DNA of 64,000 nucleotides, taken from NCBI RefSeq assembly GCF_050920415.1, contig NZ_CP169309.1. One strand, written 5' to 3'. Within the stretch, counting starts at the first letter, position 1. Each line of letters begins with the position of its first letter. Shown piece by piece: positions 21,701-24,700 of this stretch. Source of the stretch: Escherichia coli. GTDB lineage: Bacteria; Pseudomonadota; Gammaproteobacteria; Enterobacterales; Enterobacteriaceae. The position numbers are program-made.

Positions 21701-24700
21701 TTTGTATTTGCATTTCTCATGAAATATTGCATTAGCAATGAACTTGTCGGTAATGAAAGTGCATGCGCGAGCGCTGAAAAAAATATTCCACTTCTCGTAT
21801 ATGAAAACGAAAGCCCTGTGAACCGCAATTGAGCGAAATTTAATGAATTCACTCTTTGCCCACCAGCCGCAAATGTGGCATTGTTGGCGATGCTCATGCG
21901 TTGGGGATAACGTGTAGCTTGTGTCGAAGGGCCATCGTGACAGGTGGCCTTTTCTTTACCTGTTATCTGGCAATTGTGGCGCTTCGTCACACGGTTGATA
22001 TAATTCCCCTGCACTGATCCATTTTTTTCGCAGCAGGTTAATTGTTCGCAAGGGCGCTCCGGCAACGGGGCGCTTTTTGTTATGTTCATCACGTTACGCC
22101 TCACACCATTACGCAGCCGTTCCGCGCGCTTCTTCCTCGCGCTCTTTCAGCCAGGCCAGCACTTCATCTTCATACCAGCCAACACGACGCAGACCGATTT
22201 TGAAGCCTTTCGGAAATTTTCCGGCGTTGATCATGTCCTGTAGCGAACTGTCTGCCTTGATGCGCAGAATATTTTTTACTTCCTGACGGGTAAGAATTTT
22301 TCTGATTGTTTCCACTATGTTTTACCTCGTTAATCCGGCGTATTCCGGTGATAAATACGGTAAAACAGGGCAGGGCGGGAAAAACAGTACCCACCGTTTT
22401 AAAACGGTACCCACTGTTTTTTATCTTATTGATTACGCTTTTCTTTCTGCAAAAAAATAGCGACCGCAAGGGGCCGCTATTGTGATTACCGTTTCCACTT
22501 CTTAGGTCGCCCACCGCATTTAAGGCTGGTGGGCCTCAGCACCTTGTCGATGCTTTCAGCCAGATTTTTCGATGCGCCACGCGAGCGCAAAAAACTGACT
22601 ACCTCGTGTTTTGTGGGGGCAGTTGATTTGTCTTCCGGATCGTACGTTGACCAGAATTCACGATTTGCCATTAAGGCCAACTGAAGGCCTTCACCATAGG
22701 CAGGGGATACCTTTTCATTGAAAAACACTCGGATAACTCCTTGAATTTCAAGAGTCGGGTCTCTCTGTATATGGTGATTATACGATGGTTTAGCATGGTT
22801 TGCATCGCTTTTACTGGTTTTTTGTACAGTTATACGGCACGGATACCCCTTTTACCACTGGCTATGGTCACTCCGGTTGCTGCGGCCTCTACAAATTCCC
22901 CCCACCAGCGCATAAGCACCACGCGCTTTTCCAGGTAGTTACTTCGGTTATATGCTCGCCTTACCTCGTTCGTGTCCACGTGTGCGAGTGCGGCCTCGAT
23001 TACGTCCGGCTCGAATCCTTCCTCGTTCGCTGCTGTGCTGAATATGGCGCGTAATCCATGAGACACCAGCACGCCAGCGAATCCCATTCGCCGCAATGCT
23101 GCGTTGGCGGTCTGGCTGTTCATAGGCTGCCGTGGGTCTTTCAGGCTAGGGAAAACGTGCTCGCGGTGGTGGCTGATTGGCTTCATGGCCTCCAGTACCG
23201 CCATAGCCTGACTACAAAGCGGGATAACGTGATCACGCCGCATCTTCATGCGTCCGGCGGGGATCGTCCATTGTTGCGCGTCCATGTCGATTTCTTCCCA
23301 GCGTGCTGACGATGCTTCAACCGGACGGGTTACAGTCAGTAGCTGCCATTCAATCAGTAATCTGGTCTGCCGTTCTGTTGCTGATACGGATAAAGCCTGC
23401 ATAAGCTCCGGCAACTGTTCGGGGCGGATTGTTGGCATATGTTTTTTTACAGGGGAGGGGAACGCCTTACGCACATTCATAGCCGGATTGGCATCAATCA
23501 GCCCACTGTTGGCGGCGTAATCCATTACCTCATTAACGCGCTGTAAAACCCGCTTGAGTGTTTCCAGGTTGCCGCGCTCCTTGATGGGTGTAAGCACCTC
23601 AACGAACCTTCGGGCAGTGAGGGTATCTATTGGCGTGTTGCCGATGAACGGGAATACATATTTATCCAGCGAACGCCAGATGTCTTTAATCGTGTTGGGG
23701 GCCAGATTCTGGCTGATTTTCACCTGGTACCATGCCGCCGCCACATTTTCGAACGTGTTCCCTTGTCTTCGGGCCTCTGCCTCTCGTTTTTTCTTCTCAT
23801 GGTCCTGCGGGTCAGTTCCGGCACTGATTAACGTCCTGTACTCGCTACGGCGTTTTCTGGCATCAGCCAGGGAAACATCTTCAAGAGATCCAAAACTCAG
23901 CAATATTCTTTTTTTGTCCGATGGTCGGTAGTAGGAAAATCGCCAGAGTTTTGATCCGGACGGTTTTACCAGGAGAAAAAGCCCACCGCCGTCCTGTAGG
24001 GTGTACTCCTTTTGCGCTGGTCTGGCTGCTTTGATCTGCACTGTGGTTAATGGGGGTGTTTTTCTCGCCATATGTCTATGATTCCACACGAAAAAACAGG
24101 GTTTTAGTTATACGGCTTTAGTTATACGCCAGCCCGTATAACTAAACGTATAACTAAAAAATCCGGCTGATAGCTTATAAATCCGGTGATGTTCGGTGAC
24201 TAAAAACCATAAAAAAACCCGCCAATCAAGTGATTAGCGGGTTATCCCTGTCTTATTCGGTGCTTTCCGGTGATATCCGGTGGGCGATTTGGTCGGCACG
24301 AGAGGATTTGAACCTCCGACCCCCGACACCCCATGACGGTGCGCTACCAGGCTGCGCTACGTGCCGACTCGTGGCTGCTAATACTACCGTTTTCCACAAC
24401 GAATGCAAGTAAGATATTTCGCTAACTGATTTATAATTAATCAGTTAGCGATAAAACGCTTCTCGTCTGTCAGCACCTGCAATAACAAACTTAACTGTGG
24501 TTTTTCATCTTTCACTCTTTCACCACGTAAGTTGTAAGTACGGTATTTACCGTTATTGTTCAGCACCAGCGTCTTTTTCGGGGTGGTAATTGCCAGCGTA
24601 TCGTTATCCGCAGCGGTAACCCAGTAATGACGGCGTTGAGGGTTGAACAAATCCTGACCTTGCGAATATTCGCTGGCAGGTGTGCTGACATGTAGCAGGC

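What the first reader, a model, noticed from the sequence alone, without database searches (positions are those of the whole stretch)
22316..22449. Direct GTACCCAC repeats in the alpA promoter region
Upstream of alpA the sequence CAGTACCCACCGTTTTAAAACGGTACCCACTG contains two GTACCCAC copies flanking a TTTTAAAA centre. This is a candidate operator for the alpA/replication transcript and is distinct from the GGTGTACAC operators further down.
Basis: seen in the sequence. Interest (0 to 1): 0.35.

Follow-up and report, generated by a model that had tools for sequence, protein, structure and literature searches.

The report
Conserved operator pair upstream of alpA
Two GTACCCAC repeats in front of the master switch gene (alpA) of a small phage-satellite island are real and conserved, and they are most likely the docking sites of an uncharacterised small protein encoded right next to them, which offers a way to test how such islands stay silent until a helper phage arrives.

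Summary
Window 22381-22420 holds two adjacent 20-bp units (18/20 identical). Read on the alpA strand they are AAAACAGTGGGTACCGTTTT and AAAACGGTGGGTACTGTTTT, 105 to 66 bp before the alpA start codon. The window carries a ~10.8-kb PICI-like satellite at tRNA-Pro/yejM, with the gene order int, small ORF ("ORF-S"), terminator, repeats, alpA. The element occurs in 372 of 5426 complete E. coli genomes, and every copy inspected lies in this island family.

ORF-S belongs to an undescribed protein domain family with about 595 representatives and no Pfam, PHROG or NCBIfam match. Every time its neighbours could be read, the gene sat between a P4-type integrase and an alpA-like gene. It is not enriched in islands that have a similar AlpA but lack the domain.

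Best explanation: these are operators for the ORF-S-domain protein that gate alpA transcription, probably by repression. Binding, the transcription start and the sign of regulation are all untested.

Main rival, which could coexist: the 40 bp also fold into an A6-hairpin-U5 terminator-like RNA.

AlpA's own sites appear to be different, namely CACCGRA repeats in 10-bp phase.

The parts
22381..22400 (-). Proximal 20-bp unit. On the alpA strand it reads AAAACGGTGGGTACTGTTTT, 85 to 66 bp before the alpA start. Its core GGTGGGTA is the + strand TACCCACC at 22388-22395.
   Evidence: Both half-site arms are invariant in 19 unique variants, and the core is never more than 1 mismatch from GGTGGGTA.
22401..22420 (-). 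Distal 20-bp unit. On the alpA strand it reads AAAACAGTGGGTACCGTTTT, 105 to 86 bp before the alpA start. Its core is AGTGGGTA.
   Evidence: The core decays in the O111/O103/Nissle clade (GTAT, TCTA, TATA) while the arms stay. The unit is deleted exactly in L096/L098.
22486..22728 (-). ORF-S, a small protein of 80 aa as an ORF and 61 aa (22486-22671) in RefSeq. It is the candidate binder: a 3-helix domain plus a basic GGRPKKWKR tail.
   Evidence: Its homologues lie between int and alpA in every readable context.
22456..22481 (-). T1, a strong intrinsic terminator ending the int/ORF-S transcript, 35 bp before the distal unit.
   Evidence: 10-pair stem followed by T7; dG -14.3 kcal/mol, z -3.4.
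22334..22350 (-). Two probable AlpA boxes in the alpA leader (CACCGGA and CGCCGGA, 10 bp apart).
   Evidence: (D7). They are conserved as CCGG-N6-CCGG in distant AlpA islands. L054 carries three copies.
22318..22367 (-). Leader hairpin whose 3' arm buries the alpA Shine-Dalgarno sequence.
   Evidence: pair I2; RNAalifold: pair 63-108 switches A-U to U-A between the two clades.
22109..22315 (-). alpA, the regulated gene (68 aa, Phage_AlpA).
24182..24282 (-). Five CACCGRA boxes in exact 10-bp phase beside the attR core. They are probably AlpA sites acting in excision, and they show that AlpA's motif differs from the finding.
   Evidence: 5 boxes in 100 bp against a window background of 21 in 64 kb.
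22830..24089 (-). P4-type integrase, the first gene of the int / ORF-S / alpA module.

Best explanation
The two 20-bp units are operators, meaning protein-binding sites, that gate transcription of alpA, the master activator of this PICI-like satellite. The recognised motif is asymmetric: an A/T-rich run, then GGTGGGTA, then Y, then a T-rich run. The most likely binder is the product of the small gene immediately upstream (ORF-S). ORF-S belongs to an undescribed family whose conserved C-terminal 3-helix domain ends in a basic, AT-hook-like G-R/P-R-P-K tail.

Proposed working: ORF-S is made from the int-side transcript, which stops at terminator T1. It occupies the two sites, whose 20-bp spacing (about two helical turns) would put them on roughly the same face of the DNA, 66-105 bp before the alpA start, and keeps the weak alpA promoter shut. 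Helper-phage infection relieves this. AlpA then amplifies its own expression through separate CACCGRA boxes in the leader and promotes excision through the same boxes at attR.

What is shown: the repeat itself, its conservation, its exclusive linkage to this island family in the copies inspected, the gene order, the cross-lineage motif enrichment, and the dissociation from the AlpA subtype.

What is inferred: that ORF-S binds DNA at these sites, that the effect is repression rather than activation, where the promoter lies, and how the helper acts.
For: The repeat is far above chance.

It is present in 372 of 5426 E. coli genomes, on chromosomes only, and every copy inspected is at the tRNA-Pro/yejM island.

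Two clades have unrelated DNA upstream of the element but keep the 40 bp. Variable columns are 4 of 32 in the arms against 10 of 12 in the spacer just downstream (Fisher p 2e-5).

ORF-S is conserved at 64-67% identity between the clades.

A profile search finds 595 relatives, mostly as the C-terminal domain of ~200-250-aa proteins. There are no Pfam, PHROG or NCBIfam matches.

Six of six readable contexts show int, then the ORF-S-domain gene, then an alpA-like gene.

GGTGGGTA with at most 1 mismatch, counted between that gene and alpA:
- 10 hits in 1239 bp against 0.53 expected, with 0 of 5000 shuffles reaching 10. Density outside these regions in the same loci is 0.71 per kb.
- The three loci fetched after the hypothesis was formed give 3 hits against 0.27 expected (11 of 5000 shuffles).
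- A second fresh set of five loci (four lineages) gives 10 hits against 0.55 expected (0 of 5000 shuffles).

Control islands without the domain give 2 hits in 2566 bp against 1.96 expected, even though their AlpA is 58-66% identical to the window's. Domain-bearing islands with only 23-31% AlpA identity do have the motif.

The A/T-rich flanks are shared across lineages.

Literature: alpA promoter fragments respond to helper phage even without AlpA, and AlpA adds positive autoregulation, so a second cis input is expected (PMC11773190; PMC6092414).

Against: Part of the domain weakly resembles ankyrin-like repeats.

Within the E. coli clade the distal unit loses the core but keeps its arms. A pure core-recognition model does not predict this.

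Two domain-bearing islands (L147, L206) have no hit with at most 1 mismatch.

The gene and the motif are adjacent, so shared ancestry contributes to their co-occurrence.

No promoter is identifiable, so the sign of regulation is a guess.

EcCICFT073, the model PICI, has no annotated gene between int and alpA.
Confidence: 0.58

Rival explanations
1. RNA-level element. On the alpA-sense transcript the 40 bp fold into A6, an interrupted 17-bp stem, a UUAA loop and U5. This would be a second intrinsic terminator or attenuator (T2) placed 35 nt after T1, insulating alpA from int/ORF-S read-through. It could coexist with protein binding.
For: The sense-strand hairpin has dG -11.8 to -17 kcal/mol (most between -14 and -17) in all variants, while the antisense strand gives only -8 to -13.7 because of G-U pairs. 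The A6 and U5 tracts are invariant. RNAalifold predicts the hairpin. Pair 16-39 changes G-U to U-A in 4 sequences, and pair 13-42 alternates A-U and G-U. The hypervariable centre maps to the internal loop. The consensus scan flags the element as terminator-like. This reading explains why the arms outlast the distal core.
Against: A terminator has no reason to consist of four equivalent AAAACRGT half-sites, or to share its core with non-hairpin direct-repeat arrays in unrelated islands. The centre follows direct-repeat logic, not complementary logic, in the window clade (GGGT in both units). The z-score in the window is only -1.6. A strong T1 already sits upstream. The stem is GC-poor. A one-unit variant exists.
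Confidence: 0.2
2. The site is an operator, but for a different protein: a helper-phage-encoded activator or repressor, or a host factor. In that case ORF-S is only a linked passenger.
For: alpA promoters are induced by helper phage through an unidentified factor, independently of AlpA (PMC6092414; PMC11773190). ORF-S has no recognisable DNA-binding fold. No good sigma-70 promoter is found, which suggests dependence on an activator.
Against: The motif tracks the ORF-S-domain gene across islands from different hosts with different AlpA subtypes. A helper- or host-specific factor would not be expected to do that. No related sequence is found in 50,697 phage genomes by blastn. No resemblance was recognised, from memory, to the operator consensus of any E. 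coli regulator; this is a lead, not a test.
Confidence: 0.12
3. AlpA autoregulatory or recombination-directionality array: the four ACNGT pentamers, spaced 9-11 bp apart, are bound by AlpA itself.
For: AlpA activates its own promoter in EcCICFT073 and EcCIMP1. Recombination directionality factors typically bind repeats one helical turn apart (PMC7498355 abstract). The pentamer spacing is 9, 11 and 9 bp.
Against: No copy of the motif lies near either att site. A different motif, CACCGRA, forms 10-bp phased arrays at attR and in the alpA leader, and follows AlpA into distant islands. The GGTGGGTA motif is absent from islands with 58-66% identical AlpA and present with 23-31% identical AlpA.
Confidence: 0.05

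Closest known systems
SaPI Stl repressor and its operators (Gram-positive PICIs)
   Same: An island-encoded regulator is placed next to int, and its sites control the genes that start the satellite cycle. Release depends on the helper phage. Family members have variable parts that could sense different helpers.
   Different: There is no sequence or fold relationship. Stl is divergently transcribed and is a proven repressor. Here the gene runs in the same direction as alpA, is separated from it by a terminator, and has no tested function. Gram-negative PICIs are described as activator (AlpA)-driven, with no known repressor (PMC6092414).
Tandem operators of phage repressors (for example lambda OR1/OR2)
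   Same: Two similar ~20-bp sites lie about two helical turns apart in front of a switch gene, each with partial dyad symmetry.
   Different: The cross-lineage motif is asymmetric. Arrangements in relatives include direct, inverted and single copies. No CI/Cro-like helix-turn-helix protein is involved.
Satellite phage P4 late promoter PLL upstream of vis (the alpA homologue)
   Same: The alpA-type gene is the first gene of a helper-responsive transcript and is also autoregulated by its own product.
   Different: PLL is activated by Ogr/delta through TGT-N12-ACA at about -55. That motif is absent here. No psu, sid or delta genes are annotated.
Rho-independent (bidirectional) terminators
   Same: An A-tract, a stem-loop and a U-tract lie directly after a transcription unit.
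   Different: The stem is GC-poor and interrupted, is made of four equivalent half-sites, lies after an already strong terminator, and shares its core with non-hairpin arrays in other islands.
Binding arrays of recombination directionality factors (lambda Xis, 186 Apl, P2 Cox, P4 Vis)
   Same: Short repeats lie about one helical turn apart with A/T tracts between them, near the control region of an integrase module.
   Different: That description fits the CACCGRA boxes of this island (at attR and in the leader). It does not fit the GTACCCAC units, which have no copy near att.

Membership tests
Sequence-specific operator (protein-binding site controlling a promoter) | Repeated or dyad motif conserved above its flanks | tested here: met
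   Variable columns are 4 of 32 in the arms against 10 of 12 in the adjacent spacer. The element is conserved across two clades with unalignable upstream DNA.
Sequence-specific operator (protein-binding site controlling a promoter) | Motif co-occurs with a candidate cognate protein across independent lineages | tested here: met
   10 hits against 0.53 expected, then 10 against 0.55. Controls give 2 against 1.96. The motif dissociates from the AlpA subtype.
Sequence-specific operator (protein-binding site controlling a promoter) | Overlaps or adjoins a mapped promoter | tested here: inconclusive
   No sigma-70 match of 9/12 or better. Only weak candidates of ~6 bits. The transcription start is unknown.
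Sequence-specific operator (protein-binding site controlling a promoter) | Demonstrated binding by the protein | not testable with these tools
   This needs EMSA, footprinting or ChIP. The fold search is non-committal.
Rho-independent terminator | Stable stem-loop followed immediately by a U-tract on the transcribed strand | tested here: met
   dG -11.8 to -17 kcal/mol, followed by U5.
Rho-independent terminator | GC-rich stem; folds better than shuffled sequence | tested here: inconclusive
   The window z-score is -1.6 (15 of 200 shuffles fold as well). The O111 variant scores -3.9. The stem is GC-poor and interrupted.
Rho-independent terminator | RNA 3' ends at the U-tract in vivo or in vitro | not testable with these tools
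   No transcript data are available.
RDF/AlpA binding array | The same motif is also present beside the att core | tested here: not met
   There is no ACNGT cluster and no AAAACNGT pair near 13.5 kb or 24.1-24.3 kb. The att-side arrays are CACCGRA.
P2 Ogr / P4 delta-dependent late promoter | TGT-N12-ACA dyad upstream of the promoter | tested here: not met
   No match in 22316-22449.
P4-type RNA immunity (CI RNA pairing with seqA/seqC) | Complementary partner sites downstream that co-vary | tested here: not met
   The single complementary 8-mer, at 17367, has no co-varying counterpart in islands with other centres. No Rfam family is hit.
Replication iterons | Same repeat as at the origin next to the primase/rep gene | tested here: not met
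   The origin iterons are (G/T)TCTACC at 18230-18500.
Gram-negative PICI (the island as a whole) | int, alpA and pri in one direction, origin after pri, ~10-15 kb, specific att site, no lysis or tail genes | tested here: met
   The gene set parallels EcCICFT073.
Gram-negative PICI (the island as a whole) | Induction and packaging by a helper phage | not testable with these tools
   No experimental data exist for this island.

The most novel reading that the evidence does not exclude
ORF-S-domain proteins are the missing master repressors or sensors of AlpA-type satellites in Gram-negative bacteria, the functional counterparts of SaPI Stl. In this reading the conserved C-terminal domain with its AT-hook-like tail sits on GGTGGGTA operators in front of alpA. 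The highly variable N-terminal domains of longer family members would recognise specific helper-phage proteins. The E. coli tRNA-Pro islands would carry a minimal version that has only the DNA-binding part.
Probability: 0.25. Interest if true: 0.8.

Novelty: new variant of a known kind. Interest (0 to 1): 0.55.

Why it matters
How Gram-negative PICIs stay silent and how a helper phage switches on alpA is an open question. The phage inducer is unidentified, and whether any repressor exists is described as unclear (PMC6092414). alpA promoters respond to helper phage even without AlpA (PMC11773190).

This finding points to a concrete pair that nobody appears to have described. One half is a conserved DNA motif. 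The other is an unannotated protein family held in a fixed position between int and alpA in many islands.

If the pair is a real switch, the question becomes directly testable with simple binding and reporter assays. It would also add a marker for annotating satellites, and a handle for engineering PICI-based tools in strains such as E. coli Nissle 1917, which carries a related island.

Tried and rejected
1. [quoted passage not shown] I held this view after the within-E. coli comparison. I dropped it when the core turned out to be the part shared across unrelated islands.

2. AlpA as the binder. Rejected: the motifs differ, there is no copy near att, and the motif dissociates from the AlpA subtype.

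3. Pseudomonas AlpA-type antitermination. That protein is larger, Q-like in fold and unrelated (PMC9371919).

4. Ogr/delta late-promoter dyad. Absent.

5. P4-like antisense pairing with the GTACCCAC at 17367. There is no covariation.

6. Origin iterons and integrase arm sites. These are different motifs, TCTACC and CGTATAAC.

7. A copy of the operator in phage genomes. blastn against 50,697 phages gave only chance hits.

8. A second genomic copy in carrier strains. The "2 places" per genome most likely come from the near-palindrome matching itself on both strands; this was inferred, not inspected.

9. Known RNA families. Rfam found none in the island other than the tRNA.

11. Locating the promoter. 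The consensus scan was empty and a position-weight-matrix scan found only ~6-bit candidates.

12. A search of genome contigs with AlpA gave 17 loci. These were useful as controls but contained no further copies of the element.

Full report
**1. What is in the sequence**

GTACCCAC lies on the + strand at 22387-22394 and 22407-22414, around TTTTAAAA. Two abutting 20-bp units, 22381-22400 and 22401-22420, are 18/20 identical. A 16-base version of the motif is expected 0.05 times in the window and is found twice, side by side. On the strand of alpA the units read AAAACAGTGGGTACCGTTTT (distal) and AAAACGGTGGGTACTGTTTT (proximal), 105 to 66 bp before the alpA GTG at 22315. Each unit is an imperfect dyad (AAAACRGT-N4-ACYGTTTT), so the 40 bp are also a near-palindrome.

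**2. Context**

The window carries a ~10.8-kb island inserted at tRNA-Pro(GGG) beside yejM. All its core genes are on the minus strand:
- a P4-type integrase (22830-24089);
- a small ORF, called ORF-S here (22486-22728);
- a strong terminator T1 (22481-22456);
- the repeats;
- alpA (22109-22315; PF05930);
- a DUF4222 gene;
- a D5-type primase (18506-20254), followed by TCTACC iterons at 18230-18500;
- a protease/capsid fusion and a PerC-like gene.

This is the layout of Gram-negative phage-inducible chromosomal islands, and the gene set parallels EcCICFT073. In those elements AlpA is the master activator. It autoactivates its own promoter, and it is switched on by an unidentified helper-phage signal (PMC6092414). 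In EcCIMP1 the helper signal works even without AlpA (PMC11773190).

**3. Conservation within E. coli**

A 49-70-bp query finds the element in 371-372 of 5426 complete genomes, on chromosomes only and unannotated. Every copy inspected lies in the tRNA-Pro/yejM island.

There are two clades. One is the window type. The other includes O111 11128, O103 RM8385, Nissle 1917 and KY174. Their DNA upstream of the element cannot be aligned, yet both keep the 40 bp and the alpA leader.

Among 19 unique in-register variants, the four 8-bp arms vary at 4 of 32 columns. The two 4-bp centres vary at 7 of 8, and the 12-bp spacer downstream at 10 of 12 (Fisher p 1e-4 and 2e-5). The proximal unit is the better kept: its arms never change, and its core stays within one mismatch of GGTGGGTA. 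The distal core decays in the second clade. In two contigs the distal unit is deleted exactly.

**4. A terminator-like hairpin**

On the alpA-sense RNA the 40 bp fold into A6, a 17-bp stem with a small internal loop, and U5. The free energy is -11.8 to -17 kcal/mol (most variants between -14 and -17), against -8 to -13.7 on the other strand. RNAalifold predicts the fold, with one pair changed on both sides in four sequences. This reading explains why the arms outlast the distal core. It does not explain the four equivalent half-sites, or the cross-lineage result in section 6. I keep it as the main rival and a possible second function.

**5. AlpA's own sites look different**

CACCGRA occurs five times in exact 10-bp phase beside the attR core (24182-24282). 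It occurs twice more, 10 bp apart, in the alpA leader (22334-22350). One relative has three leader copies. The CCGG-N6-CCGG leader element follows AlpA into Pectobacterium, Edwardsiella and other islands. EcCICFT073 has analogous ACAAC arrays after int, before alpA and near att. Phased direct repeats at att and at a promoter are the known habit of excisionase-type proteins (PMC7498355 abstract). No copy of the GTACCCAC or ACNGT motif lies near either att site.

**6. The turning point: the neighbouring gene**

ORF-S is 64-67% identical between the two E. coli clades, although the DNA there has diverged beyond alignment. A profile search of 1.84 billion representative proteins finds 595 relatives. 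Most carry the domain at the C-terminus of ~200-250-aa proteins with very different N-termini. None matches Pfam, PHROGs or NCBIfam.

AlphaFold on a 35-sequence alignment gives a confident 3-helix bundle (pLDDT 86.7) with a disordered basic G-R/P-R-P-K tail that resembles an AT-hook. Fold searches are non-committal.

In all six contexts whose neighbours could be read, the gene sits between a P4-type integrase and a small alpA-like gene.

- With at most one mismatch there are 10 hits in 1239 bp across six unrelated islands, against 0.53 expected. None of 5000 shuffles reaches 10. The density outside these regions in the same loci is 0.71 per kb.
- The three loci fetched after the idea was formed give 3 hits against 0.27 expected (11 of 5000 shuffles).
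- A second fresh set of five loci gives 10 hits against 0.55 expected (0 of 5000 shuffles).
- The sites share A/T-rich flanks on both sides.
- Where two hits were located they tend to lie about 80-125 bp before the alpA start (window -80/-100; L141 -96/-121; L145 -93/-124; L149 -91/-123).

Eleven control islands without the domain have 2 hits in 2566 bp against 1.96 expected. Their AlpA is nevertheless 58-66% identical to the window's, whereas domain-bearing islands with the motif have AlpA only 23-31% identical. The motif therefore follows the ORF-S-domain gene and not AlpA.

**7. Mechanism I commit to**

The units are operators of the ORF-S-domain protein that gate the alpA promoter. I lean towards repression for three reasons:
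- an island-encoded, probably constitutively made factor acting on a gene whose expression triggers excision and runaway replication is more plausibly a brake;
- no good sigma-70 promoter exists in the region;
- the weak candidates either start transcription inside the distal unit or, on my own reading of the sequence, place their hexamers inside the two cores.

AlpA would then add positive feedback through its own boxes. An SD-burying leader hairpin adds a further layer of control. Binding, the sign of regulation, the transcription start and the helper's mode of action are all inferred.

**8. What remains odd**

- The arms are conserved while the distal core decays.
- Two domain-bearing islands lack a clear core. 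L147 instead has the palindrome AAAGGTGACCACCTTT.
- L037 has a core variant with one extra base, alongside a remote family member.
- The model island EcCICFT073 has no annotated gene at this position.

**9. Verdict**

The element is a new variant of a known kind (an operator/regulator pair of a mobile element), involving an undescribed protein family. It bears on the unsolved question of how Gram-negative PICIs are controlled.

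Noticed in passing
window 24182-24282 and 22334-22350 (minus strand): CACCGRA boxes lie in exact 10-bp phase beside the attR core (three plus two copies), and two more lie in the alpA leader. 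These are probably AlpA sites for excision and autoregulation. A relative (L054) has three leader boxes, and EcCICFT073 (L103) has analogous ACAAC arrays.
   Followed up: partly
window 22318-22367 (minus strand): The alpA leader can form an 18-bp hairpin that buries the Shine-Dalgarno sequence. One pair switches A-U to U-A between the two E. coli clades, which suggests translational control.
   Followed up: partly
window 21303-21312 and 21338-21347: Two GGTGTACAC(C/A) palindromes 35 bp apart sit directly upstream of an Arc-like/YlcI-family gene (21347-21541, + strand), opposite in direction to the rest of the island. They are probably that gene's own operator.
   Followed up: no
window 13555-13590 and 24100-24170: CGTATAACyAAA repeats lie near both island ends and are probably integrase arm-type sites. 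The att core CTCGTGC(C)GACCAAA is repeated at ~13478-13492 and at the tRNA-Pro 3' end, 24290-24302.
   Followed up: partly
window 18230-18500: A dense array of (G/T)TCTACC iterons in both orientations lies just downstream of the primase gene. This is the likely island replication origin.
   Followed up: no
window 15311-15408 and 17850-17947: A 98-nt repeat (79% identical) with GC-rich hairpin-like parts flanks the capsid/protease gene region. Its function is unknown.
   Followed up: no
window 15148-17037 (minus strand): RefSeq annotates the near-identical (99.9% over the region compared) island as carrying a ClpP-like prohead protease fused to a major capsid protein, an unusual single-gene capsid module for a satellite.
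   Followed up: no
L030, L032/L046/L047, L033, L041, L042/L045 (alpA upstream regions): AlpA islands without the ORF-S domain carry other lineage-specific repeat arrays upstream of alpA (AAAACTTCCA x6, TTACCAAC x4-5, CTTCAA x5, and a 22-bp unit x3). The gene between int and alpA in several of them shares a different C-terminal motif (..FRKLIAEAL..). The layout of a variable gene plus its own array may be general.
   Followed up: partly
L096 and L098: These natural variants have exactly one 20-bp unit deleted, leaving only the proximal unit.
   Followed up: no
window 21541-22109: A stretch of about 570 bp downstream of alpA lacks a convincing gene. Relatives have an Icd-like gene here, and the near-identical RefSeq island annotates an Icd-like pseudogene further downstream (~21001-21252), so the region appears decayed in this island.
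   Followed up: no
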